From an uncultured Poribacteria bacterium (GTDB lineage Bacteria; Poribacteria; WGA-4E; WGA-3G), in assembly GCA_958296135.2 (NCBI GenBank), contig CATQHZ020000001.1, forward strand, positions 2,496,001 to 2,560,000: a stretch of DNA of 64,000 nucleotides, written 5' to 3'. Both the position numbers and the translations under genes were made by a program. The notes beneath the pieces were generated by a model that was not told the origin of the DNA, searched no databases, and saw only the letters and a list, made by a program, of their open reading frames with translations. Within the stretch, counting starts at the first letter, position 1, and each line of letters opens with the position of its first letter. Positions 1-58,216 of the stretch are shown piece by piece.

Positions 1-711
1 ACAGGAGCGCGCGACAAAGTAGTAGACATGAAAGAGCTCTTCATTGACATCGGCGCGGAAAGCAGCGAACAGGCAACGGAGGAATTCAGCGTGCTGCCGG
101 GATGCCCCATCGCTCCCTACGGGCCCTTCCAACCGATGAAAAACAGCAAACTGTTCGCCGCTAAAGCGTTTGATAACCGCGTCGGGGTCGCGCTGGTAAT
201 CGAAACGCTTTTAAGCATCCCAGAAGAACATCCGAACACCGTTATCGGCACCGGAAGCGTGCAGGAAGAAATCGGATTACGTGGTGCCAAAACGGTAACC
301 GCAAGCGTGCAACCCGACATCGCAATCGTGCTTGAGGGACCGCCTGCAGACGATACCCCCGGATTGGATAGCGAGGCCGTGCAGGGAAAACTTGGCGGCG
401 GTGTGCAAATTCGACTCTACGACCCTTCCATGGTAGTCAATCCGAAATTGGGAGAATTTGTCATCGAAACAGCGAAACGGCACCAGATTCCGTATCAAAT
501 CGCCGTGCGCCAATCCGGCGGCACCGACGGCGGTTCGATTCATCAAATCGGAGCGGGCGTGCCATCAATCGTGCTCGGCGTGCCAGCGCGCTACGTGCAT
601 AGCCACGTCTCTATCATCAACATTGACGACTATGCCGCGACGTTGCAACTGCTTGCGCACCTCGTCCGAGAAATAGATACCTCGGTTGTGGAGGGATTTT
701 TGTTCGCGTAG
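1..711 (+). CDS. M42 family metallopeptidase (5' truncated by window edge)
   Basis: Frame open from base 1; motifs KAFDNRVG, VQEEIGLRGA, GGTDGG, RYVHS. Confidence 0.9.
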   Translation, partial: TGARDKVVDMKELFIDIGAESSEQATEEFSVLPGCPIAPYGPFQPMKNSKLFAAKAFDNRVGVALVIETLLSIPEEHPNTVIGTGSVQEEIGLRGAKTVTASVQPDIAIVLEGPPADDTPGLDSEAVQGKLGGGVQIRLYDPSMVVNPKLGEFVIETAKRHQIPYQIAVRQSGGTDGGSIHQIGAGVPSIVLGVPARYVHSHVSIINIDDYAATLQLLAHLVREIDTSVVEGFLFA

Positions 712-730
712 CCGCCACGGAGGATAAACA

Positions 731-1561
731 ATGACTTTACCGAAAATCTCGTTCTGTCATCACCAGATCAGCAAGCTGCTCATTGGCGATAACCCGATTT
801 ACGGCTATTCGCACTTTAACCAACTGCTATCGCAGCATCAGCAGGAATATCACACGCCGGCGCGCGTCGTCGCAACGCTCAAGCGAGCCGAAGAAGTCGG
901 CATTAACGGCTGGCAGAACAGCCTCACCGAACGCTCACTAGCTGACCTGACGCGCTACCGCGAGGAAGGCGGCACGATGAACTGGTTCTGCCTCAGCAGG
1001 AGCTCGGACTGGTACCACGAACCCGAACTGGTTTTTGAGGCAGCGAAGCACAACCCACTCGGCATGGCACCACACGGCGGCGGCGTGGGACAGCGATGCC
1101 TCCGAGAAAATAGACTCGAGCTGCTGCAGGATATCCTCAAACGGATTCGCGACACCGGATGCCTCGTCGGCTTGTCAGTGCATGACCCGAGACTCTTGCA
1201 CATCGCCGAAGACGAAGCGTGGGACCTTGACTACTACATGACCGGGCTCTATAACCTCCACGGCGGACAAGAAAAGTTCACGGAGAAGTTCGGATACGCA
1301 CCCCTCGGCGAAATCTATGCACGCGAAGACCGGGATGCAATGTGTGAAGCGATACAGCGAACCGATAAACCGTGCATCGTTTTCAAGGTGCTTGCCGCCG
1401 GACGGACGATCGGCAGTCCCGAGCAAATCCGCACCGAAATCAAATTCGCGATCGACCATATCAAACCGACCGATCCGCTTTTACTCGGCATGTACCAGCA
1501 ATTCGGCGACCAGGTCGGCGAAAACGCGGCGTTGATTACGGAACTTTGCCAGGAGATATGA
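731..1561 (+). CDS. Hypothetical aldo/keto-reductase-like TIM-barrel protein
   Basis: ISKLLIGDNP N-terminus, FKVLAAGR near C-terminus; SD GAGG upstream; adjacent to an AKR. Confidence 0.6.
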   Translation: MTLPKISFCHHQISKLLIGDNPIYGYSHFNQLLSQHQQEYHTPARVVATLKRAEEVGINGWQNSLTERSLADLTRYREEGGTMNWFCLSRSSDWYHEPELVFEAAKHNPLGMAPHGGGVGQRCLRENRLELLQDILKRIRDTGCLVGLSVHDPRLLHIAEDEAWDLDYYMTGLYNLHGGQEKFTEKFGYAPLGEIYAREDRDAMCEAIQRTDKPCIVFKVLAAGRTIGSPEQIRTEIKFAIDHIKPTDPLLLGMYQQFGDQVGENAALITELCQEI

Positions 1562-1574
1562 TGGAGGACGAAAA

Positions 1575-2558
1575 ATGGAAAGACGCACTTGTGGGGAATC
1601 CGGAATCGAAATCTCACCGATGGGCATCGGATGCTGGGCATACGGCGGCGGTGACTACTGGGGGCCGCAAGCACAATCCGATGTCACCGAAGTAGCGCAC
1701 GCGGCACTGGACGCAGGCATCAATTTCTTTGATACGGCGGAAGGCTATAACGACGGCAGAAGCGAAGAAGCACTCGCAATCGCGCTCAAAGGGAGACGAC
1801 ACGAGGCAGTCATCGGCACGAAGGTGAGCACGCCTAACCCGGCCACCATCCGAGAGCACTGCGAAGCCAGCCTCCGCCGACTGCAGACAGACTACGTCGA
1901 CATCTATATGATTCACTGGCCGCACGAAGAATTCGCCATTGAAAAAAGCATGGAGGTGTTAACGCGCCTCCGGGAAGATGGGCTTATCCGAGCCATCGGC
2001 GTAAGCAACTTCGGCGTGGGACAGCTGAAAGACACCATCGACACCGGCGCATCCATCGCCGTGAATCAACTTTGCTATAACCTTTTGTCGCGCGCAATAG
2101 AACCCGAACTCCTTCCGCTCTGCAAGCAATACAACATCGGTATCTTAGGATACATGCCGTTGTTGCAAGGAATTTTGACCGGCAAATATAGGAACGTCGA
2201 TGAGATTCCGCCGGTGCACTCGCGGTTTCGCCATTTTGGCGCAGACCGGCCGAACGCCTCACACGGCGAGAAAGGCGCGGAGGAAGAGATGTTCGAGACG
2301 CTAGAACGCATCCGAAGCATCGCTGAAGCGGAACAGGTGCCGATGAGCAAGCTCGCGATCGCCTGGGCGATGGCGAAACCGGGAATTACGTGCATGCTCG
2401 TTGGCACACGGAATGTCGGCGAACTAGAACAGAACCTGCACGCCGTTGAATACTCGCCTGCCGCCGAGGTGATTGAAAGCCTGGACAAGGTGACTGAACC
2501 GCTCTTGGAGAAAATGGGCGCGAACCCGGACTATTTCACCGGTGGGAAAATCCGATAA
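1575..2558 (+). CDS. Aldo/keto reductase
   Basis: GINFFDTAEGY, TK, LQTDYVDIYMIHWP, IRAIGVSNF, YMPLLQGILTGK. Confidence 0.95.
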   Translation: MERRTCGESGIEISPMGIGCWAYGGGDYWGPQAQSDVTEVAHAALDAGINFFDTAEGYNDGRSEEALAIALKGRRHEAVIGTKVSTPNPATIREHCEASLRRLQTDYVDIYMIHWPHEEFAIEKSMEVLTRLREDGLIRAIGVSNFGVGQLKDTIDTGASIAVNQLCYNLLSRAIEPELLPLCKQYNIGILGYMPLLQGILTGKYRNVDEIPPVHSRFRHFGADRPNASHGEKGAEEEMFETLERIRSIAEAEQVPMSKLAIAWAMAKPGITCMLVGTRNVGELEQNLHAVEYSPAAEVIESLDKVTEPLLEKMGANPDYFTGGKIR

Positions 2559-2574
2559 ACGGAGGACCTGATGC

Positions 2575-3453
2575 ATGACACTCAAATTTAACAAAGACCT
2601 CGGGAGCCCGTTGGCAACGTCAGCGGCAGACCTCACGCAAACCAACGCCGATGGCGCGCCGGTCGTACCACTGACGCAAGAGCAGAAATACCTGTTTGAT
2701 AAAAACGGGTGGCTCTTAATCCCAGGCGTGCTGACAGATTCCGAGGTTGAAGAGATGCGCGACTTTTGCTATCGGCTGCAGCGCGCCCCGGAGACAATCC
2801 CACAACATCACCGCTCCACCTACGGCGGCCCACTGGAGAAACTCACCGATCATCCGGTCGTTGTCGCATTCGGCAACGAATTCCTCGCATCGCCCTATCT
2901 AGCCTCTGAGACATGCTACGGGTTCCGCATGGAGATGAGTTTTCTGGCACTCCGCTCCACATCCGACGAAACGCCTTTCAAATTCCACGCGCACAACGGC
3001 AACGGAATGCTGCGGATGCCGGGCGACTGCCACGAATACCACTGCCTCCCCGGGCAAGCCTATAGCGGGTTGACGCGCGTGGTGTGGGAGCTCAACCCGG
3101 TTAAAAAAGGCGATGGCGGGACAATGTTCATCACCGGAAGCCACAAAGCCGCCTATACCGCACCTGAGGGCGCGCATACGCAAGACTGGGAGTTCTGGGA
3201 TACCTACTCCTGTCCCCCCGGGTCTGTCATTATCTTCACGGAGGCGACTACGCACAGCGGCCAGCCGTGGCGCAACCCGAACACCGATAGAGTCGCGGTT
3301 TTCAACGCCTATAACTCCGTCGATAAACGGTGGAGCTTATCAAAACCGCCGAAGGCACTGTTGGAATCGATGCCGCCAAAACGGCAGACGCTTTTCCGAG
3401 ACGCTTATGTGAAAGGCAACGTGACCGGCACAAAGTTTAATATGGCTCTGTAG
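2575..3453 (+). CDS. Phytanoyl-CoA dioxygenase (PhyH) family protein
   Basis: QKYLFDKNGWL, GDGGTMFITGSHK, GSVIIFTEATTHSG..W. Confidence 0.85.
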   Translation: MTLKFNKDLGSPLATSAADLTQTNADGAPVVPLTQEQKYLFDKNGWLLIPGVLTDSEVEEMRDFCYRLQRAPETIPQHHRSTYGGPLEKLTDHPVVVAFGNEFLASPYLASETCYGFRMEMSFLALRSTSDETPFKFHAHNGNGMLRMPGDCHEYHCLPGQAYSGLTRVVWELNPVKKGDGGTMFITGSHKAAYTAPEGAHTQDWEFWDTYSCPPGSVIIFTEATTHSGQPWRNPNTDRVAVFNAYNSVDKRWSLSKPPKALLESMPPKRQTLFRDAYVKGNVTGTKFNMAL

Positions 3454-3465
3454 ATTCGGAACCAG

Positions 3466-3582
3466 TAGGCGAGCCCTCCCGGTCTCGATGGCTTGTAGGA
3501 GAAACCTCCCGCGTCTCGATGGCCTTGTAGGAGAGCCCTCCCGGTCTCGATGGCTTGTAGGAGAAATCTCCCGCGTCTCGAT
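3466..3582 (+). repeat. Tandem array of four ~30-32 bp GTAG-headed REP-like units
   Basis: gtagg(a/c)ga(g/a)(c/a)(c/t)ctccc(gc)gtctcgat x4; same family at 15782 and 45029-45158. Confidence 0.85.
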
Positions 3583-3645
3583 CCGAAGTGTCAGGAAAAG
3601 CCCCATTCCGATTAAGGAACGGTCTATAGCAGGAGAATCAAAATC

Positions 3646-4470
3646 ATGACACCGAAACAACGATATCTATTTGACGTAACCGGCTACCTCCACTTAGAAA
3701 ACGTCATTACCGGCGATGCCTTAGCCGAGGCAACCGAAGCGGTGGATAGATATATCACGACACCACCCGATCAACTGCCACCGGGATTTGAAGTGAAGGG
3801 GCTACATCAGCACGGGTTCGCCTTTGACAAATCGCTGGAGGGCTTAACCATGCATGCCGCGACCTGGCCGATTATTAAGGAATTCACGGCGAATCAACCG
3901 CGGTTCGCGCGCGGCTCACTGAAACACGATAAGCACGCCCTGTGGGAACCAGGCGAACACGCACGGGTAAATCCGGGCGGATTGCACTGCGCACGCGATG
4001 ACTACGGATGGTATAGCACCCGCTACGAGGTAGACAATGGGCGCATCTATTGCGACAACTTCGTCTGCTTCACCTATTTCACCGACGTGCAACCGGGCGA
4101 CGGCGGGCTTATCGTGATCCCCGGTTCGCATAAAAGCGAGTTCACCCGGCCCGAAACTTTGCTCACGCTTGATGAAGAGGACGGCATCGATCCTGTCGAT
4201 AACCCGGTTTTCACCAACATCACGCCGAAGGCAGGGGATATTGTGATTATTTCAGAACTGCTCACGCACGGCGTGCTGCGATGGAAGCCGAAGGACAGAG
4301 ACCGGCGGTTCCTCGTGCTGCGTTATTATCCGCAATACGCTGGCAGACACAACCTCCCGCAACCCATTCTGGACCGGCTTTCGCCAGAGACGTTGGAATT
4401 AGTTGAATCCGCGCCGTATGGGCATATCAAGGAGATTGTGAAAAGCGATGAGGTGACGTTGACGGTGTAA
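3646..4470 (+). CDS. Phytanoyl-CoA dioxygenase (PhyH) family protein
   Basis: QRYLFDVTGYL, GLH, GDGGLIVIPGSHK, SELLTHGVLRW. Confidence 0.85.
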   Translation: MTPKQRYLFDVTGYLHLENVITGDALAEATEAVDRYITTPPDQLPPGFEVKGLHQHGFAFDKSLEGLTMHAATWPIIKEFTANQPRFARGSLKHDKHALWEPGEHARVNPGGLHCARDDYGWYSTRYEVDNGRIYCDNFVCFTYFTDVQPGDGGLIVIPGSHKSEFTRPETLLTLDEEDGIDPVDNPVFTNITPKAGDIVIISELLTHGVLRWKPKDRDRRFLVLRYYPQYAGRHNLPQPILDRLSPETLELVESAPYGHIKEIVKSDEVTLTV

Positions 4471-4508
4471 GGTGTATGCGCGGACCGCCCCGCGCACACC
4501 TTTTCATC
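4469..4508. repeat. Palindromic dispersed repeat (aaggtgtatgcgcgg..ccgcgcacaccttttcatc)
   Basis: Near-identical copy at 6397-6435; related inverted copy near 10133-10173; lies between convergent genes and may act as a terminator. Confidence 0.75.
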
Positions 4509-4579
4509 TACCGCCGCCCCGGCACAGAGACTTGTGCGGGAGTGCATCTTGTATCGCGAATACAACAGTTAATAGGGTA

Positions 4580-5629
4580 TTACTCCTCGCGCTTCAACTC
4601 GCCCCACTGTGCAGGAAACTGGCCCGCAGCAGAAACTGGTAGATACAGCGGCACCCAATCCGGCGAAAACTCTCTATAAGGCGTATCGGTGAGCTGCACA
4701 ATCTTGCCACTCGCACGATGATACCGATAAATATCAAAATTCTGAATCGGTAACTGGTCTAACAACCTATCTTCCGCCGCAACGAAAAGAATCTGTGTGC
4801 CCCCTGCCGCCCAACACGCATCACTGACTAGCCATGTCTCTGGAATCTTCAGAACGTTTGGATGTCTGCCGTGCTTGTCCACCACAATGAGTTTATTGGA
4901 GACGCGCAGCGGTTTCGCCGGATCGAACTGATATTCAATTTCAGCATACATCAAGTGTTGCCCATCCGGTGACCAGCACTGTGTGTAACGCGAAATCAGA
5001 TGTTCGCCAACAAGATGCGGCTGGGGGCCTTTGAGAAAAGGCCGCGGGCGGTTCCCTTCAATATCAACGATGTAGATATGGCGGCCGTTTGCACCGACAT
5101 GTTGATAAGCGATATGATGCCCATCCGGTGACCAATTCGGCGCGGAGGAGAACCCTGCTGCCCGCGCCGTTTTCGTGAGTTGTCTCAGCTCCCCACTTGC
5201 AACCTCCAGAATGTAAATCTCGAAATTGCCACCGCGGTTGCTTGTAAAGGCAATGTGTCGCCCATCGGGGGCCCAGGTGGGAGACCCGTCCAACTTTGGA
5301 TGGTGCGTGAGGCGCCGTTCATTGCTGCCATCAGCATCCATGAGGAAGATGTCAAATTGTTGGCCTTGTGCAGAGCGTAAGTCGCGCTCAAAAACGATGC
5401 GGCTGCCATCCGGAGACCAACGGGGGAGATACTCCCTCAGCGGCGTGTTGGTAAGTGGTGTGACAGTGCTGCCATCATCATTCATCACGTAGATGTCGCA
5501 GTTGCCATCGCGCGTGGAGTAGAAGACAATCGCGGCGAAGGCATGCGCCGCAGGAAGCAGCATGAAAACGAGCACGAGGCACGCCGCTGCACAGCCGGAT
5601 GCTGTCCTGTCTCTGTAAGTTAACATCAC
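4580..5629 (-). CDS. Secreted TolB-like (PD40 repeat) beta-propeller protein with C-terminal WGxLK tail
   Basis: Signal peptide; repeated P-x-W-S/A-P-D-G; ends LPVSAAGQFPAQWGELKREE. Confidence 0.85.
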   Translation of the reverse strand: MMLTYRDRTASGCAAACLVLVFMLLPAAHAFAAIVFYSTRDGNCDIYVMNDDGSTVTPLTNTPLREYLPRWSPDGSRIVFERDLRSAQGQQFDIFLMDADGSNERRLTHHPKLDGSPTWAPDGRHIAFTSNRGGNFEIYILEVASGELRQLTKTARAAGFSSAPNWSPDGHHIAYQHVGANGRHIYIVDIEGNRPRPFLKGPQPHLVGEHLISRYTQCWSPDGQHLMYAEIEYQFDPAKPLRVSNKLIVVDKHGRHPNVLKIPETWLVSDACWAAGGTQILFVAAEDRLLDQLPIQNFDIYRYHRASGKIVQLTDTPYREFSPDWVPLYLPVSAAGQFPAQWGELKREE

Positions 5630-5651
5630 AATTTTCCTCCTGACTTAAGAG

Positions 5652-5684
5652 GCTGTCTAGGGAGGGGCGGCCCCCCTAGACAGC
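5652..5684. terminator. Strong hairpin after the pseudogene (possible terminator or processing stem)
   Basis: gctgtctaggg...ccctagacagc inverted repeat; no U-tract on the minus strand. Confidence 0.4.
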
Positions 5685-5688
5685 GGTT

Positions 5689-5956
5689 TTAGTCTCGGCG
5701 GATCATAAATTCCCAGGTATCGTGCACCTCAACGGCAAACACCTCGCGATCATGAAACCGGAGCGCGGTATACGCGTCAATGAGATATCCCCCCGGGTCG
5801 AGCCCGCGACAGCTTGCGCCTTGCAAACCATCAAGATAGAGCGATAGGGGTGGCAAACAGACTCACCAAAACCAGCAAACCGATTCCCGCAAGGCACACT
5901 GTCCATGCGCCGCTTCTCGTCCCCGTGCGCGGGGAATTCAACAATGTCCTAAACAT
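5689..5956 (-). pseudogene. Internally deleted, frameshifted paralog of the secreted protein at 10181-10687
   Basis: N-term MFRTLLNSPRTGTRSGAWTV matches MFRTFFSFPRTGTKRGAWTV and stops at 5831; another frame gives GLDPGGYLIDAYTALR..., resembling ELDPGDEFTLSAYTRV. Confidence 0.7.
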
Positions 5957-6160
5957 CTTTCTCCTCCTTATGAGAAAGGGCAGAAGGTGATACCCCATTT
6001 CAGATATCCAAACCACTTGGACTTTCAAGGCACCATACCTCCCACGCGCGCTTAACTCTAATTATACCCTCCGAGGCATAAAAATTAAGGCCCTTTGCCA
6101 CTTTTTTTCACAATATTCGCGGTTTTTCCTCGAAAAAAGCGCAAATCGGGCAAAATCTGA
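5957..6160 (-). promoter_or_regulatory. Conserved promoter + structured leader, copy 1
   Basis: -35 CTTAAT (6084-6089), 17 nt spacer, -10 TATAAT (6061-6066); leader with GTCCAAG-NGG-TTTGGAT hairpin; homologous to the copies at ~7.7 and ~10.7 kb. Confidence 0.8.
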
Positions 6161-6300
6161 TAGAAAAGTTGAACTTCTCCGGAAATTCTTCCGAAAAATC
6201 ATCGCATTCCTGAAAGGCGCGTACAGAAACTCGCGTAGACTGGGAAGCGGGCAGCCGCCGCGCCAACAAGCACTCCAGCTGCCCGGTATATCTTTACGCC

Positions 6301-6389
6301 TCAGTCCTGAAACGGAGACAACTGCGCCTTTAATATCCCCAACACCTCATGGTAGATTTGGGTCACGCGCGGCGCAGAGATATCCAACT
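6301..6389 (-). pseudogene. 3' relic (region 4.2) of a second copy of the sigma factor gene
   Basis: 89 nt matching 7900-7988 with 2 mismatches; encodes LDISAPRVTQIYHEVLGILKAQLSPFQD*. Confidence 0.9.
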
Positions 6390-6433
6390 CCTTGGAAGGT
6401 GTATGCGCGGGCCGCTCCGCGCACACCTTTTCA

Positions 6434-7075
6434 TCAGTGAGAAAATGCCCTCGCACGCGAGGCGGCTGCCTTATCAGCCTGTGCACTCTTAAGAGATTTG
6501 AGCGTCTCTTCATGGGGCCACAGGGAGTAAGTTGCCTCATAGAGGGCTATCTCTTCGTCAAGAGTGATGACCTCCCCCAATTGCAATTTCAGACTTATGT
6601 CCACATTCGTGTGCACTGCCGGGATATCGCCAAACTGCTTGATGAGTTGTGCGCGACGAGCCTCTGCCCGCTCATACGGATCGGCAATCTCAAACCACAC
6701 TTTTGGCGGTGGGCCTTCTGCCTCTTCGGATTCGTGTGAGTGGATTTGAGGCCACGGCTCCACTTCATGGGTATGGGAGTGCTGTGTATCGTCTCGCCAA
6801 TCAACGTCAACATCAGCATCGTCCTCATGAGTGTGCGGATGCACGGAGGTATCAGCAGCTGCAGCCGCCCCTTCCGCCACTCCCGTCTCTTTGGAGGACT
6901 CTTCCGCGTCCTCCACGTCCAGAGGTTTGGAACGCGCAGACTCATTCTGCTGTTCAACCGGCTCTGGCACTTGAGGCAGGCTCTTATCAAAATCCTTTTT
7001 CGCCACCTCAAAGTAAATCTGAAATCCGGCTATCAGCAGCACGAGGACGATGGCCGGTAAAATGAGGTTACGCAT
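6434..7075 (-). CDS. Hypothetical N-terminally anchored/secreted protein with acidic, His-rich linker
   Basis: Hydrophobic N-terminus; HPHTH, HSHTH, HSH motifs; SD AGGAG upstream. Confidence 0.75.
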   Translation of the reverse strand: MRNLILPAIVLVLLIAGFQIYFEVAKKDFDKSLPQVPEPVEQQNESARSKPLDVEDAEESSKETGVAEGAAAAADTSVHPHTHEDDADVDVDWRDDTQHSHTHEVEPWPQIHSHESEEAEGPPPKVWFEIADPYERAEARRAQLIKQFGDIPAVHTNVDISLKLQLGEVITLDEEIALYEATYSLWPHEETLKSLKSAQADKAAASRARAFSH

Positions 7076-7100
7076 TTTTTGACTCCTTCTCAAGATTGTG

Positions 7101-7333
7101 CCCAGTAGCAGAGAGCAGTGGGCCCTGGTTGTCCAGGGCCCACTTGCCTACACTTTTAAGACCAAATTAATTTGCTGGTTTGAGATGTCCAGCCCTCAAC
7201 CTAGGCGAGAATTGGAAGTCTCGCACTACAGGGTGAGAGCAACGCGCAGCTCACACATTAATTTGGTATCAGGTTGTGTCCAATAGCGGAGGCAGTGGGC
7301 CCTCCGTTTGCCAAGGGGCCCTTGCCTACACTT
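7101..7333 (-). repeat. Two direct copies of a ~54 bp hairpin (7101-7155, 7280-7333)
   Basis: cca(g/a)tagc..gcagtgggccct..gggccc(a)cttgcctacactt in both copies. Confidence 0.75.
7161..7267. ncRNA. Candidate multibranch structured RNA
   Basis: 11-bp perfect closing stem accaaattaat/attaatttggt enclosing three hairpins; family not recognised. Confidence 0.45.
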
Positions 7334-7344
7334 ACGCGCCGAAA

Positions 7345-7638
7345 CTAACTGTCGCAGCTGTCACAATCGCCTGCAACGGTTTCTCGGATCGACTGATAGT
7401 CCAGTCTGCGCGTAACATCATGAACAACCGGATGCGCGCTTCCCGTTTTGTCATCCGGCGTGCTGGTCGAAGTCCAGCGGCGGAAAAACGAGACGCACTC
7501 GGTCCCACTCGCAGTTGTACATGTGTAACTCCGAGAGTGCAGTACAACTTCGTAGGGATTGGACTCGGATGGACTGCTGAAAATAGCCAGCATGGCAAAA
7601 GCCACCAGCAGCCCTAGCGTCAAAACTCGGATTCTCAT
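7345..7638 (-). CDS. Small secreted protein (97 aa, 4 Cys, C-terminal CDSC)
   Basis: Signal peptide MRIRVLTLGLLVAFAMLAIFSSPSES; downstream of promoter copy 2. Confidence 0.7.
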   Translation of the reverse strand: MRIRVLTLGLLVAFAMLAIFSSPSESNPYEVVLHSRSYTCTTASGTECVSFFRRWTSTSTPDDKTGSAHPVVHDVTRRLDYQSIRETVAGDCDSCDS

Positions 7639-7694
7639 TTTTCTTCTCCGCAACAGTTCCTTCAAGGAGTATTCTATAGATTCTCCCCAAAGGG

Positions 7695-7875
7695 AAGGGT
7701 GGAGGTTAATTCCCCATCTCGGATATCCAAACCGCTTGGACTTTCGAGGCACCATACCTCCCACGCGCGCTTAACTCCAATTATACCCTCCGAGGCATAA
7801 AAATTAAGGCCCTTTTTCACTTTTTTCACAATAGGTGCGTTTTTTCACGAAAAAACGCATATCGGGCAAAAAATG
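7695..7875 (-). promoter_or_regulatory. Conserved promoter + structured leader, copy 2
   Basis: CTTAAT (7803-7808)-N17-TATAAT (7780-7785); same leader hairpin. Confidence 0.8.
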
Positions 7876-7899
7876 GAAGAAACCTGCCCGGCACCCACC

Positions 7900-8721
7900 T
7901 CACTCCTGAAACGGAGACAACTGCGCCTTTAATCTCCCCAACACCTCATGGTAGATTTGGGTCACGCGCGGCGCAGAGATATCCAACTGAGCTGCAATCT
8001 CTGTCCCTTTCACCGCTTCAATCGTTTTTGAGACCACTATCCTTTGCTGCCGCTCGGTAAGCGACGACAGTCCCTCCCGAACCTGCTGCCTCACTTCCGC
8101 ACGAACCACATCCGCTTCTACGTCCACAGACGCATCTGCAACGAAGTCACCAACAGACATGTCGCTGTCTTCATCCCCAACCGGTGCCTCCAGCGAAATC
8201 GTTCCTTCCCGGAACAGCAGAATTTCTTCTATTTGTTTGACGGTTAACTCCACGGCTTCGGCGACTTCGGCGTGCGTCGGTTCGCGCAACAGCGTCTGAC
8301 ACAGCGTCGCCCAAGCGGCGGAGACTTTGCCACACTGCCGGAGATGACCGGGAAGCGCGGTAAATCCAGAGTCGCGGCGAACCGCCACCTGAATCGCCTT
8401 CTCAATGCCGCGCGTTGCATAGGTGCTGAGTTTACACCCCTTCCGGTAATCGAATTTATCCACCGCCTTTACCAATCCCATATTTCCCTCTTGAATCAGG
8501 TCTTCAAGGGGCACCCCGTTGTTTTGGTATTTCCGTGCGATAGAAATGACCAGGCGCAAGTTCGCCTCGACCAGCTCATCGCGTGCGTCGGCATCGCCGG
8601 CTTCCATTTGCTTGGCTAATGCTACTTCCTCCTCCCGCGATAACGGGCCGTGCGTCTCGGCACACTGCAGACAGCACGTTAACGCATCCGGCGCACTGAG
8701 TGTAGGAGTGAACTGTTTCAT
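7900..8721 (-). CDS. Sigma-70 family RNA polymerase sigma factor, RpoD-like but divergent
   Basis: PLSREEEVALA, LVEANLRLVISIARKY, DLIQEGNMGLVKAVDKFDYRKG, ISLEAPVG, region 4 HTH; SD AAGGAGG. Confidence 0.92.
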   Translation of the reverse strand: MKQFTPTLSAPDALTCCLQCAETHGPLSREEEVALAKQMEAGDADARDELVEANLRLVISIARKYQNNGVPLEDLIQEGNMGLVKAVDKFDYRKGCKLSTYATRGIEKAIQVAVRRDSGFTALPGHLRQCGKVSAAWATLCQTLLREPTHAEVAEAVELTVKQIEEILLFREGTISLEAPVGDEDSDMSVGDFVADASVDVEADVVRAEVRQQVREGLSSLTERQQRIVVSKTIEAVKGTEIAAQLDISAPRVTQIYHEVLGRLKAQLSPFQE

Positions 8722-8780
8722 TGTGAAACCTCCTTGCGTAAAAATTGGAACCGTTCAACGGTATTTCAATCTCTATATAT

Positions 8781-8809
8781 AGTATAGGAATTAAATGGCA
8801 AAAGTTTAG
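8781..8809 (-). promoter_or_regulatory. Putative promoter of the sigma gene
   Basis: CCTAAA-N17-TATACT in an AT-rich intergenic region. Confidence 0.45.
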
Positions 8810-9002
8810 GGTAAAATGCACTTTTTTTGCGGTTTTTTTTACTTAATTCTCAAAAAAACGCAAAATGGCGATGTTCACGCGTGCATGTTACCGGTGCCAC
8901 TCTTAATAGGTGCGCATTTTTCGGAAATGTCAACTTTTTCTGCAAAGAAGTAAACCGTAACAAAAAATCCGCGGACGTGGAAAACACGCCCGCGGCAGAA
9001 AC

Positions 9003-10115
9003 CTAGTGACGCAGGCGAGGGCCGTCTTGGGACTCCCGCACGCGCGAAAAAGGTGCATCCGGTGCATTCTTCGCCTTTATCCGCCCCCACTGCGTCGTTA
9101 ATTTACCTGCCGAGGAGACCGACAAAGGATGCGATGTCCAATCGGCCGCCCAGTCATCAGCCGGGTGCTGCGTCAGGTTGGTTATCTGCCGGGTGGACAA
9201 CTCATAGCGATAAATCTCATAGTTGCCGCCCGCCCGATTCACCAACCCATTTTCTATCCCATCGAAAAGCACCGCTGTGCCATCCGCCGCCCAGCAGACC
9301 CCGCCTACCCACCATGTCGCAGGAACCGCCAACACCCGCGGATGGGAACCATCCCGCCGACGGATAATCAGACGATTGGCGACCCGCTTAAACATGTCGG
9401 GACCGACATCAAACTCCCTCTCATTATACAGCAGGTAGTCACCATCCGGAGACCACCGCGGGTGATGACTCATGAAAGTCTTCCCTAGAATCGCCGGGAC
9501 TAATGCCTTGACAAGGGGCCGGTTGCGCTTTCCGGTAGCATCCATCAGATAGATGTGCCGCCCTTGCCCCGGCAGCGACATTTGATAAGCAATCTGCCGC
9601 CCATCCGGAGACCAGGCGGGACCCGTGGCGTAACCGCCGACCGCGGCACTGTCTGTCAGTTGTCTCACGGCACCGGTGGCGATATCCATCACGTGAATTT
9701 CAAAGGCACCGCTTCGATCACTCAGAAAAGCAAGGCTGCGTCCATCGGGAGCCCAACCACCATTCCCATCTAATGCCGGGTGTTGTGTCAGGTTTCGCTG
9801 TCTTGTCCCATCTGCATTCATAAGGAATACGTCTATATCTTGCCCCTGTTCTGGGACCTCCGAATTGAGATCCGCAGAAAAAATAATCTGTGCGCCATCC
9901 GGAGACCAGCGCGGGCGACTCTTATAGAGCAAATCGCTCGTGATCCGGCGGACATAGCTGCCCTCATCGTCCATGACGTAGATGTCGCTTTCATAGATGT
10001 CAATGCTGCCCTCGCGATCCGAGATGAAGACAATGTCGGCCGAGGCAACCGCCGCCATCAACACAAAGAGCAGACTGACCACTATCAGTTCAGATGAAAG
10101 GTTGTGAATGCGCAT
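9003..10115 (-). CDS. Secreted TolB-like (PD40 repeat) beta-propeller protein with WGxIK tail
   Basis: Signal peptide; repeated WSPDG/WAPDG; LSVSSAGKLTTQWGRIK; paralog of 4580-5629. Confidence 0.85.
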   Translation of the reverse strand: MRIHNLSSELIVVSLLFVLMAAVASADIVFISDREGSIDIYESDIYVMDDEGSYVRRITSDLLYKSRPRWSPDGAQIIFSADLNSEVPEQGQDIDVFLMNADGTRQRNLTQHPALDGNGGWAPDGRSLAFLSDRSGAFEIHVMDIATGAVRQLTDSAAVGGYATGPAWSPDGRQIAYQMSLPGQGRHIYLMDATGKRNRPLVKALVPAILGKTFMSHHPRWSPDGDYLLYNEREFDVGPDMFKRVANRLIIRRRDGSHPRVLAVPATWWVGGVCWAADGTAVLFDGIENGLVNRAGGNYEIYRYELSTRQITNLTQHPADDWAADWTSHPLSVSSAGKLTTQWGRIKAKNAPDAPFSRVRESQDGPRLRH

Positions 10116-10180
10116 GGTGATTCTCCTCCCAAGAAGAAAGCGTGTGCTGCGCGCCACCTGACGCGCAGCACCTGGGACGG

Positions 10181-10687
10181 TTATTTCTGATAACGACGCT
10201 TAATTTCCACTTTCCAGCCATCGCGCGCCCCTCGCGCCCGAATCGCAACGCGGGTATACGCTGACAGCGTAAACTCATCGCCTGGGTCTAACTCAGGGAT
10301 GTCGTTGAGATCGAGGCGCCGCCCGTAAATCGGCTCCATATATACCGCACCCGCAGGAAGCCGGCGGTCCGATCTGACTTTCTTGTTCTCGGTGCCCGTT
10401 TCCAGGATGGCGTGCTGGAACTCGTAGTCAAACCGGGCAGGGAACCCACTCTCGTTGGATACCGTGAGATAATGCGAACTCCGCGTATACGGCCGGCTGT
10501 AGCCAATGCCCCACAACTCCACAGAACCGTAGACACCGCCTACCCATCGGGAATCCGATATGGCTGACGCATCGGGTGGCACAGTGAAGAGACACATCAG
10601 TGCCAGCAAGCCGATTACCGATAGACGCACTGTCCATGCGCCGCGCTTAGTCCCCGTGCGAGGGAAACTGAAAAATGTCCTAAACAT
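10181..10687 (-). CDS. Hypothetical secreted protein (168 aa)
   Basis: SD AAGGAGG; long signal peptide ending ASA; paralogous pseudogene at 5689-5956. Confidence 0.75.
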   Translation of the reverse strand: MFRTFFSFPRTGTKRGAWTVRLSVIGLLALMCLFTVPPDASAISDSRWVGGVYGSVELWGIGYSRPYTRSSHYLTVSNESGFPARFDYEFQHAILETGTENKKVRSDRRLPAGAVYMEPIYGRRLDLNDIPELDPGDEFTLSAYTRVAIRARGARDGWKVEIKRRYQK

Positions 10688-10870
10688 CTTTCTCCTCCTT
10701 TGAGGAAGCACGGAAGGTGATACCCCTCTCTTGGATATCCAAACCGCTTGGACTTTTGAGGAACCAGACCTCCCACCTTCGCTTAACTCTAATTATACCC
10801 TCGGCGGCCAGAAAATTAAGGCCCTTTTTCACTTTTTTCACGAAAAAAACGCCATTCGGGCAAAATGTTG
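10688..10870 (-). promoter_or_regulatory. Conserved promoter + structured leader, copy 3
   Basis: CTTAAT (10815-10820)-N17-TATAAT (10792-10797); same leader hairpin. Confidence 0.8.
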
Positions 10871-10948
10871 GGAAAAATGGGAAATTGCAAAAAAAAGCCG
10901 CCGTTGTGAAAACACAACAGCGGCGAAAAGAAAATAAAGATTCCGGCA

Positions 10949-11536
10949 TTAACCAGATGCCTTATCAGAAAACTCAACGAAACGATAGATGTGCCGCAAA
11001 GGCAACTCGCAGTCAATCGAAACAACACGTAGCACATCCGTGAGTTCCCGCAATTCCTCAAAAATCCACTTTTCCCCCTGGCGAAGATAGTGCTCAACGC
11101 GAACATCGTCTTGTGAAATCAAGATGTATTCCTGCACAGATTCCACCCGCCGATAGTAGGCGAATTTCTCACCCCGGTCTCTCGATTCTGTTGATGGCGA
11201 AAGCACCTCTACCAAAACAAGCGGATTGATGAGGGTATCAAAGACATCATCCTCAAAACGTGGCTCATCACAGACAACGGTGACATCCGGATAAAGGTAA
11301 GACGTTACGGGGCTCGTTCCCACGCGCATATCGCTACCGTAAACCCGGCACCCCCGTTCTACCACTTGGTTGTAAATCCCATTGATAGTATTCACGGTAA
11401 TGAGATTATGCGCGTTACTTGCTCCGGGCATTTCAATAATTTCTCCATTGAAGTATTCGCTTTTAAATTCTGATTTGCGCTCAAAAGCAAGGTATTCCTC
11501 TGGCGTTAAGAGGGTTTGCACTGCAACAGATGCCAT
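10949..11536 (-). CDS. Uma2 family endonuclease-like protein
   Basis: TPEEYLAFER..KSEYFNGEI, YPDVTVVC, NPLVLVEVLSPST...DRGEKF..Y. Confidence 0.92.
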   Translation of the reverse strand: MASVAVQTLLTPEEYLAFERKSEFKSEYFNGEIIEMPGASNAHNLITVNTINGIYNQVVERGCRVYGSDMRVGTSPVTSYLYPDVTVVCDEPRFEDDVFDTLINPLVLVEVLSPSTESRDRGEKFAYYRRVESVQEYILISQDDVRVEHYLRQGEKWIFEELRELTDVLRVVSIDCELPLRHIYRFVEFSDKASG

Positions 11537-11556
11537 AGGTGCCTCCGCTAAAATAT

Positions 11557-11594
11557 ACCCCGGTAGGCGTGCTGTGTCCGCGCGCCTACCGGGG
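11557..11594. repeat. GTAG-type REP-like palindrome
   Basis: ccccggtaggcgtg..cgcgcctaccgggg; family copies near 18061, 20079, 20850, 28550, 31421, 31538. Confidence 0.75.
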
Positions 11595-11607
11595 AACTCT
11601 GACGATG

Positions 11608-12015
11608 CTATAGATTGCTCGCAACCTTAACCCGGTTCTGCGCGCGGGCACGGGCCGCCTCCGCACGCTGAACGTTCAAATCCAGCGCATTTGCGGCGAG
11701 ATGCGCCTGCGCGCGTTCTAACGCAGTCGCCGCACGCTGAACATCAATCTCCGATGCCCACTCGGCTGTCTCAACTAACGCTGTAACGCCGGTGCGGAGC
11801 ACCTCAAACACGCCACCGCTCGTCGCTAGCAACTGCGGCGTATCTCCCTCACGGATACGGAGCTCGCCGACTTCCAAAGCCGTCAGGAAGGGGATGTGCC
11901 CAGCGAGGATCTCAAAGTTACCCTCAACACCCGGTGCACGGACACTCGTAACCTCCCCTTCATAAATCAACTTTTCTGGCGTGCGAATTTCAAGGTGAAA
12001 ACTTCGACTTAACAT
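11608..12015 (-). CDS. atpC: ATP synthase F1 epsilon subunit
   Basis: LEIRTPEK, GVEGNFEILAGHIP, C-terminal helices; position in operon. Confidence 0.95.
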   Translation of the reverse strand: MLSRSFHLEIRTPEKLIYEGEVTSVRAPGVEGNFEILAGHIPFLTALEVGELRIREGDTPQLLATSGGVFEVLRTGVTALVETAEWASEIDVQRAATALERAQAHLAANALDLNVQRAEAARARAQNRVKVASNL

Positions 12016-14102: not shown

Positions 14103-14576
14103 TTACAGTTGAGGGCATGCCTCGTGAAACCGAGCCAGGGCCTCAGCGGCATTCACCAACGCCCACTGCCGATTTCGGGCTGGCATCATGAGATTCAGAC
14201 GCTGGATTTTACGGTTCACGCTCTCAAACTTGGCGCGATACTCCGCAAGTCCGCGAGCGCGCTCATGCTCAAAACTCCGTATGACAGCTGCCCCTCGGCT
14301 CGGCTGTTGCCGCACGATGGCAGCCAGGCGTTCGCGGCGCGCGGTGAGATTCGCGAGCAGCTTGTCCAACTGCGCCTTGTCCCGCTGAATCTCCTTCTCC
14401 AATTCAATCCACCGTGGCGCGAACCCGTTCTCTTTCAGCAGCCGATTCGCCATCCGAACTTGAGGCGTAATGAACGGATTCGTATCCAAGTTGAGCGGCT
14501 TGCCTTTGCCCGGCAAGTTAGTAAACTCGCCGCGTTGCATCGCCTTTTCAATCTGTTCGTCAACATTGATAGGCAT
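14103..14576 (-). CDS. DUF1992 (DNAJC28 conserved domain) protein
   Basis: VDEQIEKAMQRGEFTNLPGKGKPL...ANRLLKENGFAPRWIEL. Confidence 0.9.
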   Translation of the reverse strand: MPINVDEQIEKAMQRGEFTNLPGKGKPLNLDTNPFITPQVRMANRLLKENGFAPRWIELEKEIQRDKAQLDKLLANLTARRERLAAIVRQQPSRGAAVIRSFEHERARGLAEYRAKFESVNRKIQRLNLMMPARNRQWALVNAAEALARFHEACPQL

Positions 14577-14724
14577 TTGAAACCTCCTCTGCGAGGTAGG
14601 CGCGCCTGATGAAGATTAAAAAATAAACGGCTTATGTTTCCCCGATGGAAACGGGCAGATATAGAAAGCAGTTTTTCGCCCCGGTTCATCAACAATATAT
14701 TTAGGATTGACAGTGAGCAGCACT

Positions 14725-20046: not shown

Positions 20047-20136
20047 TTTTCGTTTTCCAAGACAGATGCAGAACTTATCCGGTAGGCGTGCTTACAAAGC
20101 GCGCCCCCGGGGAGAATTAGGGAATTTGCGTCCATC

Positions 20137-31419: not shown

Positions 31420-31586
31420 TGTGCGCGGTTGCAAACCGTGCCTACAAAAACTGTTATGTTTTCGTGCTGTCCTTTCAACGGTGCTCTGATATGATACCCG
31501 ATTTGAGCGGCAAATTCAAAGGTTTCAGAGAAGAGAACCGGTAGGCGCGCTTTGCAAGCGCGCCAAGGAAAATACAGCTGCCTTCT

Positions 31587-45026: not shown

Positions 45027-45158
45027 CGGTAGGAGAGACATCCCGGTCTTGACTTTCCTCGGTAGGAGAGACATCCCGCGTCTCGACTCCCCCCGGTAGG
45101 AGAAACATCCCGCGTCTCAACTCCCCCCGGTAGGAGAAACATCCCGCGCCTCGACTCC
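45027..45158 (+). repeat. Tandem array of four ~33 bp GTAG-headed REP-like units
   Basis: cggtaggaga(g/a)acatccc(gc)gtct(c/t)(g/a)act x4. Confidence 0.85.
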
Positions 45159-47613: not shown

Positions 47614-47690
47614 GGCGGGACTAGGAGGTCCCGCCTACCAGCAGCAGAAATTCGGGACCAGGAAGTACCGCCTACCAGCAGCAGAAATGT
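47614..47690 (-). repeat. Two tandem GTAG-type REP-like units
   Basis: cgggac(t/c)aggaNgtNccgcctaccagcagcagaaat twice. Confidence 0.75.
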
Positions 47691-57712: not shown

Positions 57713-58216
57713 TTATCCAGGAATTTGATAGAGGAGCCGATTCTCTGACTGCAGCCAGCCTTCGGGCTTGGAAACGATGGCGAACTCCGCCCGATACCCT
57801 GATGTCCGAGTCCTCCAAGTGCGTAGTTCCACACCAAAAAATCTGAACCGTTCCTCCGTTATCTCGTTCTGCCAGTCCAGCGTTGCACGGTGCTCACGCC
57901 GGAATTCTGTGGCCACCCAAATGACAGTAACAGCCTGCAACCCCGCCGCGTACGTCAGCACTTGACCGAGGTGCGAATGGTCAGAACGCGTCAACTGGTT
58001 TTCAATCACCACACGGGAGTTATCTGCAGCGTTACGACACACCAAATCGGCTCTGAATTCTCCGACGCTTTTTTCACGTGCTTCAAATGCCAATTCCATC
58101 TTCAGGGATTCGGCGAGGCAAGACAGATTCTCGGCTAGCCATGGCGTAAAGTTATGTGCTTCATGTAGCCAGAACTCGCGAGGCGGCCGTCTCTCCCTCA
58201 AGGAAAGTTGAGACAT
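57713..58216 (-). CDS. Nuclease-like N-terminal domain of DUF4268-family proteins (C-terminally short)
   Basis: W.HEA..FTPWLAEN, RADLVC...VVIENQL..SDH.HLGQ.LTYAAG. Confidence 0.75.
   Translation of the reverse strand: MSQLSLRERRPPREFWLHEAHNFTPWLAENLSCLAESLKMELAFEAREKSVGEFRADLVCRNAADNSRVVIENQLTRSDHSHLGQVLTYAAGLQAVTVIWVATEFRREHRATLDWQNEITEERFRFFGVELRTWRTRTSGYRAEFAIVSKPEGWLQSENRLLYQIPG

What the first reader, a model, noticed from the sequence alone, without database searches (positions are those of the whole stretch)
5957..10800. Conserved ~90-100 nt structured 5' leader present three times (candidate novel cis-regulatory RNA)
Seen after each -10 box on the transcribed strand: GUUAAGCG..GUGGGAGGU..GGU(G/U)CCU..AAA-GUCCAAG(U/C)GGUUUGGAU-AUC..GGGG..ACCU(U/C)C. 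The inner stem is invariant, with variation only in its loop, and is extended by two G-U pairs that work only on the sense strand. The outer GGAGGU pairs with ACCUUC or ACCUCC (G-U/G-C exchange). In copies 1 and 3 a further CUU(U/C)CUC segment can pair over the AAGGAGGAGAAAG ribosome-binding region. Inference: a riboswitch-like or protein-binding translational control element. An alternative is a DNA operator TCCAA-N5-TTGGA.
Basis: partly seen in the sequence, partly recalled or inferred. Interest (0 to 1): 0.72.

Follow-up and report, generated by a model that had tools for sequence, protein, structure and literature searches.

The report
Duplicated promoter-plus-leader cassette in Poribacteria
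Three copies of a roughly 250-base promoter and 5' leader sit in front of secreted-protein genes in one Poribacteria genus; the leader can fold and cover the ribosome-binding site, but whether it is a regulatory RNA remains unproven.

Summary
Three minus-strand copies share a conserved promoter block and a ~100-nt transcribed leader. No Rfam family matches.

The element is rare and local. The genome holds only these three copies. Elsewhere it appears only in two congeneric Candidatus Poribacteria genomes: two full copies plus three truncated remnants. Two metagenome scans and one viral scan found nothing.

The copies arose by local duplication and recombination in a rearrangement-prone locus. 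That locus holds a group-2-like sigma gene, small secreted proteins and TolB-like propellers.

Orthologous leaders are 78-79% identical. Four-fold degenerate sites are 68-69% identical and the adjacent spacer about 50%.

A consistent fold exists: three nested helices, then a hairpin burying the Shine-Dalgarno sequence. It is better on the sense strand (-23.4 against -15.0 kcal/mol).

Covariation is not significant with five sequences, and single-sequence z-scores do not favour the sense strand.

Verdict: a real, unannotated, genus-restricted leader. It is most likely a cis-acting translational or stability element, and the riboswitch reading has no specific support. Interest is modest.

The parts
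5957..6058 (-). c1 leader from the presumed transcript start to the base before ATG. P1 5' arm 6037-6045, P2 5' arm 6026-6034, P3 hairpin 6006-6022, P2/P1 3' arms 5980-5997, Shine-Dalgarno hairpin P4 5963-5979.
   Evidence: Alignment A3; CM R1 105.2 bits; core fold z -2.82.
6061..6200 (-). c1 promoter block: -10 TATAAT at 6061-6066, invariant GGGCCTTAATTTT, A-tract motif AAAAAAGTG at 6099-6107, and a T-run/A-run inverted repeat further upstream.
7639..7777 (-). c2 leader, 139 nt. Core P1-P3 at 7699-7764, P3 at 7725-7741, P4-like hairpin at 7682-7698. That hairpin is not at the real ribosome-binding site here, because about 40 extra nt precede ATG 7638..7636.
   Evidence: (98.1 bits).
7780..7890 (-). 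c2 promoter block, starting directly after the sigma gene's stop codon. -10 at 7780-7785, AAAAAAGTG at 7818-7826, palindrome GCGTTTTTTCGTGAAAAAACGC upstream.
10688..10789 (-). c3 leader. Core at 10710-10776, P3 at 10737-10753, Shine-Dalgarno hairpin P4 at 10693-10709. This copy is orthologous to the single full copies in G001 and G002.
   Evidence: (100.9 bits).
10792..10896 (-). c3 promoter block: -10 at 10792-10797 and AAAAAAGTG at 10830-10838. It follows the terminator hairpin of the Uma2 gene (10897-10924).
10181..10687 (-). p168, a secreted protein of unknown function and the first gene behind c3. The model is a beta-sandwich.
   Evidence: No Pfam or NCBIfam hit. Homologs in 27 of 176 Poribacteria genomes. 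Model pLDDT 73.3. Best PDB match 8okh_A, TM 0.44.
9003..10115 (-). PD40/TolB-like beta-propeller, the second gene behind c3.
   Evidence: PF07676 4.3e-27; TolB model 3e-41, below its cutoff.
7900..8721 (-). Sigma-70 family gene (273 aa) with regions 1.2, 2, 3 and 4, group-2-like. Its own upstream region carries the fourth AAAAAAGTG of the window, at 8819-8827.
7345..7638 (-). p97, a small secreted protein and the first gene behind c2.
   Evidence: ORF and signal-peptide-like N-terminus; no family hit.
6434..7075 (-). p213, the second gene behind c2. In G002 it is driven by a truncated cassette.
6299..6389 (-). Duplicate of the sigma gene's 3' end, lying upstream of c1.
   Evidence: Repeat family D9, 98% identical to 7898-7988.
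5831..5956 (-). Truncated p168-like ORF (41 aa) behind c1, a pseudogene remnant. The PD40 gene 4580-5629 follows.
   Evidence: 58% identity over residues 1-40.

Best explanation
This is a genus-restricted promoter-plus-5'-UTR cassette. It has been duplicated and recombined within one locus of a Candidatus Poribacteria genome. It puts several operons for secreted or periplasmic proteins under one common control.

Shown: each cassette has an A-tract upstream block, a weak -35 region and a consensus -10 hexamer, followed by a ~100-nt leader.

Inferred: the leader works in cis as RNA. About 13 conserved unpaired nucleotides are followed by three stacked helices (P1, P2, P3). A 5-6-bp hairpin (P4) comes immediately after and pairs the Shine-Dalgarno sequence with a CUUCCU tract.

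Inferred mechanism: translation initiation is damped by P4. It could be released when the Shine-Dalgarno-like GGGAGG in the 5' arm of P1 pairs with the CUUCCU tract instead of with its P1 partner. The trigger is unknown; it could be a protein, a small molecule, temperature or a trans-acting RNA. An alternative or additional role of the P1-P3 domain is mRNA stabilisation.
For: 1. Copies. Three copies in the window, no others in the genome.

2. Relatives. Full copies occur at the syntenic place (atpD-atpC-Uma2-cassette) in both congeneric genomes.

3. Constraint. Orthologous leaders are identical at 80/102, 81/102 and 80/101 positions with a single 1-nt indel. Pooled four-fold sites give 451/662 and 320/464 (binomial p 0.014 and 0.013). 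The adjacent spacer gives 40/85, 37/68 and 44/85 and is full of indels. The first 60 leader columns are 82-93% identical in all 10 pairs, as high as the promoter block (85-90%).

4. Fold. RNAalifold finds the same nested fold in all 5 full copies, with 146 of 160 pair cells standard. The sense consensus is -23.4 kcal/mol with 25 pairs. The antisense consensus is -15.0 kcal/mol with 21 pairs. About 30 G-U cells stand against 1 A-C cell in the sense fold.

5. Single sequences. Core z-scores are -2.8, -2.4 and -3.6 for c1, G001 and G002a.

6. Ribosome-binding site. P4 covers the Shine-Dalgarno sequence in 4 of 4 copies that abut a start codon. The computed opening cost is 4.6, 4.0, 1.6 and 2.4 kcal/mol. 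The c2 P4 keeps pairing through one U-A to C-G double change.

7. Terminators. No intrinsic-terminator-like site lies inside any leader, so any control would act on translation or stability.
Against: - Covariation is not significant: 128, 69 and 137 of 500 shuffles reach the observed values, and the RNAalifold covariation term is 0.
- Only 5 full sequences from 3 species exist. c1 is a mosaic of c2 and c3, and G001 carries c2-like bases at the c3 position, so the copies exchange sequence.
- Whole-leader fold z-scores are weak: -1.50, +0.19 and -0.74. Core z-scores for c2 and c3 are only -0.81 and -1.06.
- The antisense core scores -3.45, -3.05 and -5.11 in c2, G001 and G002a.
- The helices are purine-rich against pyrimidine-rich. 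Transitions in the 3' arms therefore keep pairing without any selection. The 3' half of the leader is no better conserved than neutral sites (50-76%).
- The Shine-Dalgarno opening cost comes from the local hairpin alone and is small in G001 and G002a.
- The neighbouring sigma upstream region is 72-78% identical over 300 nt, so the leader's conservation is not exceptional for a regulatory spacer here.
- Three remnants show the leader can be cut without loss of the downstream gene. In G002 the leader halves are split at the P3 loop, and G001 keeps only a 3' quarter directly after the sigma stop codon.
- No RNA data exist.
Confidence: 0.4

Rival explanations
1. There is no dedicated regulatory RNA. 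The leader is simply the 5' UTR carried along when a strong promoter was duplicated within the locus. Its similarity among copies would reflect recent duplication and gene conversion. Its cross-species conservation would reflect ordinary constraints, such as the initial transcribed region, the ribosome-binding site and a generic 5' hairpin.
For: - c1 is a c2/c3 mosaic and carries a 98%-identical piece of the sigma gene.
- G002a and G002b share lineage-specific bases, and G001 has c2-like bases at the c3 position.
- Covariation is not significant.
- The 3' half of the leader is only 50-76% identical.
- The neighbouring sigma upstream region is 72-78% identical without any such claim being made for it.
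- Truncated remnants persist in front of intact genes.
Against: - The first 60 nt are 82-93% identical across species and have no indels. The spacer just upstream of the promoter is about 50% identical with many indels.
- The 12-nt block GGTTTGGATATC is invariant in the 5 full copies, and all of it but its first base is kept in the G002c remnant.
- The nested fold is kept in all five copies, and its consensus is better on the sense strand.
Confidence: 0.3
2. The conserved core is a DNA operator. The inverted repeat TCCAA-N5-TTGGA overlaps a second dyad, TTGGATATCC(A/G)A. It would be bound by a dimeric transcription factor at about +37 to +60, acting as a roadblock or repressor of all cassette promoters.
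For: - The repeat is present in 5 of 5 full copies. In G002a it is a perfect 7-bp dyad, ATCCAAA-GGG-TTTGGAT.
- c3 holds a perfect 12-bp palindrome, TTGGATATCCAA.
- The antisense strand folds as well as the sense strand in 3 of 5 copies. This is what DNA symmetry predicts.
- The 5' half of the leader is as conserved as the promoter, while the 3' arms of P1 and P2 are not.
Against: - No DNA-binding regulator other than the sigma factor was found among the ORFs scanned from 28 to 11536.
- The motif marks no other promoter. TCCAA-N3-7-TTGGATATC occurs 4 times in the genome: the three leaders and one duplication junction at window ~6396.
- An operator does not explain the two further nested inverted repeats (P1, P2) that span 66 nt, nor the 30:1 excess of G-U over A-C cells.
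- In G000 the two half-sites differ at two positions. Those positions are G-U pairs in RNA.
Confidence: 0.2
3. The leader encodes a short upstream ORF (leader peptide) that starts at the AUG one base after GGGAGGU.
For: An AUG follows GGGAGGU in c1, c2, G001 and G002a. In G001 and G002a the frame runs about 28-30 codons and ends at a UAG overlapping the main start. In c2 the frame is open into p97 (read directly from the sequence).
Against: - c1 stops after 3 codons.
- c3 has CUG instead of AUG and a 1-nt insertion that shifts the frame.
- The spacing between the Shine-Dalgarno-like tract and the AUG is only 1 nt.
- Substitutions show no synonymous bias on inspection.
Confidence: 0.03
4. The cassette is a small mobile element of the MITE or REP type that carries an outward-facing promoter.
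For: - The unit is repeated and lies in a locus rich in REP-like GC hairpins and rearrangements.
- The G002 duplicate includes the upstream terminator hairpin.
Against: - There are only 3 copies, all within 5 kb, and none elsewhere in 5.19 Mb.
- No terminal inverted repeats or target duplications were seen.
- It was not found in the other 58 relatives searched by BLAST, or in 109 further family genomes searched by CM.
Confidence: 0.02

Closest known systems
Translational leaders that sequester the Shine-Dalgarno sequence (expression platforms of translational riboswitches; RNA thermometers such as ROSE and fourU). Named from recall, no call.
   Same: A pyrimidine tract just upstream pairs with the Shine-Dalgarno sequence in a short hairpin. 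A larger structured domain abuts it, and a second Shine-Dalgarno-like tract offers an alternative partner.
   Different: - No match to any Rfam family.
- No covariation-supported aptamer.
- Restricted to one genus.
- The downstream genes are secreted proteins of unknown function, not a metabolic pathway.
- The hairpin is weak, 1.6-4.6 kcal/mol.
Orphan candidate structured RNA motifs from comparative genomics (the CMfinder-type surveys listed; only titles and abstract starts were seen).
   Same: A conserved intergenic block upstream of genes with a predicted nested fold and no known ligand.
   Different: Those motifs are accepted on covariation across many sequences. Here only 5 full sequences exist and covariation is not significant.
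5'-UTR stabiliser stem-loops of abundant envelope-protein mRNAs (ompA-type). Named from recall, no call.
   Same: A long structured 5' UTR behind a strong promoter, in front of secreted or periplasmic proteins.
   Different: Such stabilisers need a hairpin at or very near the 5' end. Here about 13 nt would be unpaired if transcription starts 6-8 nt after the -10 box. That start site is inferred, not mapped.
Palindromic operators in the early transcribed region (roadblock repressors). Named from recall, no call.
   Same: A dyad-symmetric TCCAA-N5-TTGGA at about +37 to +55, conserved as well as the promoter.
   Different: No cognate regulator nearby and no other sites in the genome. The extra nested repeats are unexplained.

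Membership tests
Any Rfam 15 family | Covariance-model score at or above the family's gathering threshold | tested here: not met
   0 matches in the whole window at gathering thresholds. At E up to 10 in 5500-11300 there were 12 matches, none over a leader and all far below threshold.
Riboswitch | Conserved aptamer whose helices are supported by compensatory changes | tested here: inconclusive
   91.3% of cells are paired, but shuffles reach this in 128 of 500 trials. 3 pairs have a change on both sides (69 of 500). The covariation term is 0. Power is low, with 5 related sequences.
Riboswitch | Recurrent association with genes of one pathway or transport function across many lineages | tested here: not met
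   Found only in genus g1: 3 of 61 genomes by BLAST; 3 clear hits of 112 by CM, with two further hits at E 0.054 and 0.29; none new in a sample of 151. p168 paralogs and homologs elsewhere lack it. The downstream genes have no assigned function.
Riboswitch | Direct ligand binding | not testable with these tools
   Needs in-line probing or ITC.
Shine-Dalgarno-sequestering leader / RNA thermometer | Shine-Dalgarno sequence base-paired in the predicted structure | tested here: met
   P4 pairs the AGGAG(G) tract in c1, c3, G001 and G002a, which is 4 of the 4 copies that abut a start codon. Opening costs are 4.56, 3.97, 1.58 and 2.43 kcal/mol.
Shine-Dalgarno-sequestering leader / RNA thermometer | Condition-dependent opening that changes translation | not testable with these tools
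   Needs reporter assays or probing at different temperatures.
Transcription attenuator | Intrinsic terminator hairpin with a U-run inside the leader | tested here: not met
   None of the 11 terminator-like sites found in 4400-11700 lies inside a leader.
Palindromic DNA operator | Dyad-symmetric site | tested here: met
   TCCAA-N5-TTGGA is present in 5 of 5 full copies.
Palindromic DNA operator | Cognate regulator in the locus, or further sites forming a regulon | tested here: not met
   No DNA-binding family other than the sigma factor was found among 14 ORFs scanned. The genome holds 4 sites, all in this locus.
Leader peptide / uORF | Start codon and open frame kept in all copies | tested here: not met
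   c1 stops after 3 codons. c3 lacks the AUG and is frameshifted.
MITE/REP mobile repeat | Many dispersed copies | tested here: not met
   3 copies, all within 5 kb.

The most novel reading that the evidence does not exclude
The leader is a lineage-specific translational switch. A Shine-Dalgarno mimic (GGGAGGU, the 5' arm of P1) and the real Shine-Dalgarno sequence compete for two anti-Shine-Dalgarno tracts. An unknown protein or small molecule binding the P1-P3 domain would decide which pairing wins. This would co-regulate a set of secreted beta-sandwich and TolB-like proteins encoded around a group-2-like sigma gene in an uncultivated Poribacteria lineage.
Probability: 0.2. Interest if true: 0.55.

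Novelty: new member of a known kind. Interest (0 to 1): 0.3.

Why it matters
If the leader is a working RNA switch, it would be the first cis-regulatory RNA described for Poribacteria. It would also show how a promoter-plus-leader module can be copied to recruit new genes into one regulon. The searches for 'Poribacteria' with 'riboswitch' and with RNA-motif terms found nothing relevant.

Its reach is narrow: one genus, one locus, and genes of unknown function. The present evidence cannot separate RNA function from DNA function or from ordinary UTR constraint. The most solid result is descriptive. The promoter, the leader, their duplication history, and their use as breakpoints in a fast-rearranging locus are now mapped.

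Tried and rejected
- Rfam, at gathering and at E up to 10: nothing relevant.
- Wider homolog searches:
  - Pattern scan of genome contigs gave 6 stretches. Two are the Poribacteria relatives. Three Bacillaceae hits match only the 20-nt hairpin at 14.5-15 bits, and the Phycisphaeraceae hit gave no CM match at E up to 1.
  - A phylum-wide pattern search with 2 mismatches was swamped by chance matches, comparable to the reversed-pattern control, and was useless.
  - Two metagenome patterns and one viral pattern gave 0 matches each.
- CM R1 on 112 family genomes and on a sample of 151 phylum genomes gave only weak extra hits, G113 at E 0.054 and G142 at E 0.29 per genome.
  - The G113 hit shares the 5' motif and a GUGGGAGG stem. 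However, it is a 22-bp perfect inverted repeat in an ~1.1-kb gap between ORFs (at least 70 aa) on that strand, with no -10 box before it and no gene after it. It was treated as unresolved and probably chance.
- Upstream regions of 28 loci holding p168 homologs show no leader. The best hits were E 0.17 and 2.2, over ribosome-binding-site regions.
- Sequencing runs: no RNA holder is listed. The 4 holders come from one study and are kept as contigs, so no reads were laid.
- Earlier findings of this scan: none for this genome.
- A uORF, a mobile element and an attenuator-terminator were each considered and rejected (see Rival explanations and Membership tests).
- An alternative-sigma promoter of the SigB/F type was considered because GGGTAT precedes AAT. 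NCBIfam places the neighbouring sigma factor nearest RpoD/RpoS, at 183 bits and below all cutoffs. The SigB/F/G model scores 128.5 bits against a cutoff of 234. The idea was dropped.
- Function of p168: the protein atlas gave a best score of 0.76, which is uninformative. The fold search gave only weak beta-sandwich or jelly-roll matches, best TM 0.44.
- A long-range pairing of the conserved 5' UUAAGCG with the first codons (UGUUUAG) appears in the minimum-energy folds of c1, c3 and G002a. It is weak, is lost in G001, and does not apply to c2. It was not adopted.

Full report
**What is there**

The window's minus strand carries three copies of one module.

| Copy | -10 hexamer | Start codon | Leader length |
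|---|---|---|---|
| c1 | 6066..6061 | 5956..5954 | ~102 nt |
| c2 | 7785..7780 | 7638..7636 | 139 nt |
| c3 | 10797..10792 | 10687..10685 | ~102 nt |

Each module has two parts.
- An upstream block of about 90 nt. It holds a T-run/A-run inverted repeat, the motif AAAAAAGTG, an invariant GGGCCTTAATTTT, and GAGGGTATAAT.
- A transcribed leader.

BLAST of c2 against the whole 5.19-Mb assembly finds c1 (E 2.4e-46) and c3 (E 4.1e-36). Nothing else scores better than E 0.05. The simple sigma-70 scan does not call these promoters, because the -35 region is weak.

The motif AAAAAAGTG occurs four times in the window against 0.49 expected. The fourth copy lies upstream of the sigma gene. Genome-wide there are 75 copies against about 25 expected from base composition. 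In at least six promoters it lies 32 nt before a -10-like hexamer: the three cassettes, the sigma gene, and C1:2203941 and C1:3807163. From recall, not from a call, it resembles an A-rich UP-element subsite that would compensate for a poor -35 region.

**Where else it occurs**

The record titles of the two relatives place the organism in Candidatus Poribacteria.
- BLAST over 61 genomes found the module only in genus g1.
- A covariance model built from five full leaders (R1) found nothing convincing in 112 family genomes or in a sample of 151 phylum genomes.
- Two metagenome scans and one viral scan gave 0 matches each.
- No Rfam family matches.
- No RNA-seq holder is listed.
- The scan's notebook had nothing on this genome.

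Copies in the relatives:
- G001 has one full copy at the syntenic place.
- G001 also has a remnant directly after the sigma stop codon. It is the last quarter of a leader with the ribosome-binding site.
- G002 has one full copy at the syntenic place.
- G002 also has a 5' half that ends in the P3 loop, fused to the upstream hairpin of p213.
- G002 has a 28-nt 3' half that begins in the same loop, 5.6 kb further on, before a lipoprotein-like gene.

**Context and history**

The syntenic frame in all three genomes is atpD-atpC-Uma2-cassette. Gene order by genome:
- G000: c3, p168, a PD40/TolB-like propeller, a terminator, a 273-aa sigma-70 family gene, c2, p97, p213, a 91-nt copy of the sigma 3' end, c1, a truncated p168-like ORF, and a second PD40 propeller.
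- G001: p168 has been deleted in frame.
- G002: the genes are reordered.

The sigma factor has regions 1.2, 2, 3 and 4. It scores nearest RpoD/RpoS (183 bits) and stays below every curated cutoff.

c1 is a mosaic. Its first 60 leader columns match c2 (56/60) and its 3' part and ORF start match c3. G001 carries c2-like bases at the c3 position. The copies therefore exchange sequence and are not independent.

p168 belongs to a Poribacteria family found in 27 of 176 genomes. Its members elsewhere lack the leader. The model is a beta-sandwich (pLDDT 73.3). Its structural matches are weak (best TM 0.44, Bdellovibrio Bd1399). No transcription factor or RNA-binding protein was found among the neighbouring ORFs scanned.

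**Is the leader constrained?**

Identity between orthologous sequences:

| Region | Identical / compared |
|---|---|
| Leader | 80/102, 81/102, 80/101 |
| Promoter block | 43/48, 42/48, 41/48 |
| Spacer just upstream | 40/85, 37/68, 44/85 |
| Pooled four-fold sites | 451/662 (G000-G002), 320/464 (G000-G001) |

The leader exceeds the four-fold sites with binomial p of 0.014 and 0.013.

The constraint is uneven. Columns 1-60 are 82-93% identical in all ten pairs, while columns 61-103 are 50-76% identical. The sigma gene's own 300-nt upstream region is 72-78% identical. So the leader is constrained, but not exceptionally for this locus.

**Is it a structured RNA?**

*For:*
- RNAalifold gives one nested fold for all five copies: P1 of 9 bp, P2 of 9 bp, P3 of 7 bp, then P4 over the Shine-Dalgarno sequence.
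- 91.3% of 160 pair cells are standard pairs.
- The core consensus is -23.4 kcal/mol on the sense strand and -15.0 on the antisense strand.
- About 30 G-U cells stand against one A-C cell.
- P4 buries the Shine-Dalgarno sequence in the four copies that abut a start codon. Opening costs are 4.6, 4.0, 1.6 and 2.4 kcal/mol.

*Against:*
- Shuffles reach the observed paired fraction in 128 of 500 trials and the covariation score in 137 of 500. The covariation term is 0.
- Whole-leader z-scores are -1.50, +0.19 and -0.74.
- Core z-scores are -2.82, -0.81, -1.06, -2.39 and -3.57 on the sense strand. On the antisense strand they are +0.21, -3.45, -1.02, -3.05 and -5.11.
- The 5' arms are purine-rich and the 3' arms pyrimidine-rich, so transitions keep pairing without any selection.
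- CUCG (columns 30-33) can pair either with the GGGG tract (top of P2) or with CGAG (an extension of P3). This was read.
- The GGGAGG tract has three possible pyrimidine partners, so alternative folds abound.

**Most likely mechanism**

Shown: a strong promoter cassette was copied within the locus, and a constrained leader ends in a hairpin that masks the Shine-Dalgarno sequence.

Inferred: the leader acts in cis as RNA to set translation, and perhaps mRNA stability, of the secreted-protein operons. A competition between the Shine-Dalgarno-like P1 arm and the true Shine-Dalgarno sequence for the CUUCCU tract is a possible switch. The trigger is unknown. I put this at about 0.4.

Rivals:
- Ordinary UTR constraint plus recent duplication and gene conversion (0.3).
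- A DNA operator on the dyad TCCAA-N5-TTGGA / TTGGATATCCAA (0.2).
- A uORF (0.03). c1 stops after three codons, and c3 lacks the AUG and is frameshifted.
- A mobile repeat (0.02). There are three copies, all local.

**Comparison with known systems**

It works most like a Shine-Dalgarno-sequestering translational leader. It is not a member of any Rfam family. It fails or cannot meet the criteria for a riboswitch: covariation is inconclusive, there is no broad distribution and no pathway association, and ligand binding is untestable here. It has no attenuator terminator.

Searches for Poribacteria together with 'riboswitch' found one unrelated paper, seen as a listing and abstract start only. 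The search with RNA-motif terms required any two of five terms, and none of its 10 listed papers mentions Poribacteria.

**Verdict**

The riboswitch-like reading is possible but has no specific support, and five related sequences cannot settle it. Interest is modest (0.3). If the leader is real as RNA, it is a new member of a known kind.

Noticed in passing
window 6299-6389 and 7898-7988: A 91-nt copy (98%) of the sigma gene's 3' end lies upstream of c1. This shows that c1 arose by duplication of the sigma-c2 junction. A terminator hairpin is also duplicated (6393-6435 and 4466-4508, 93%).
   Followed up: partly
L066 (G001) about 8884-8945; L065 (G002) 8925-8966 and 14562-14590: Leader remnants in the relatives. 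G001 keeps only the last quarter of a leader plus the ribosome-binding site, directly after the sigma stop codon. G002 has a leader split at the P3 loop into halves 5.6 kb apart. The hairpin loop coincides with rearrangement breakpoints.
   Followed up: partly
window 6099-6107, 7818-7826, 8819-8827, 10830-10838; genome C1:2203941 and C1:3807163: The motif AAAAAAGTG occurs 75 times genome-wide against about 25 expected. In at least six promoters it lies 32 nt before a -10-like hexamer. It may be a general upstream promoter element of this organism.
   Followed up: partly
window 7094-7340, 3465-3582, 11560-11593, 20079-20112, 31538-31571; L065 12740-13190: GC-rich REP-like hairpin repeats fill several spacers of the locus and of its relatives. 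In G002 they occupy the sigma-PD40 spacer where G000 has c1.
   Followed up: no
L060 1501-1592 (G113, minus strand): A 22-bp perfect inverted repeat begins with nearly the same 5' motif as the leader (TTAAGCG, 3 nt, GTGGGAGG). It sits in an ~1.1-kb gap between ORFs (at least 70 aa) on that strand, with no -10 box or following gene. CM score 25.3 bits. Homology is unresolved.
   Followed up: partly
window 8750-8762: The palindrome ACCGTTGAACGGT lies in the 5' UTR of the sigma gene. It is largely kept in G001 (one base differs) and mostly deleted in G002.
   Followed up: no
window 10144-10171: A strong GC hairpin with a weak T-run lies between p168 and the PD40 gene. It may be a partial terminator inside the c3 operon.
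   Followed up: no
window 10181-10687; G136: The p168 family of secreted beta-sandwich proteins is patchy in Poribacteria (27 of 176 genomes). It is expanded in one genome, G136, with 11 matches. G000 has two further paralogs, at C1:4360420 and C1:709164; the latter is broken by a TAA.
   Followed up: partly
window 45046-45147, 47616-47688, 57815-60369: Three tandem 34-nt repeats, a 37-nt tandem pair, and a 1521-nt-spaced duplication with 102-nt internal periodicity (a repeat-protein gene).
   Followed up: no
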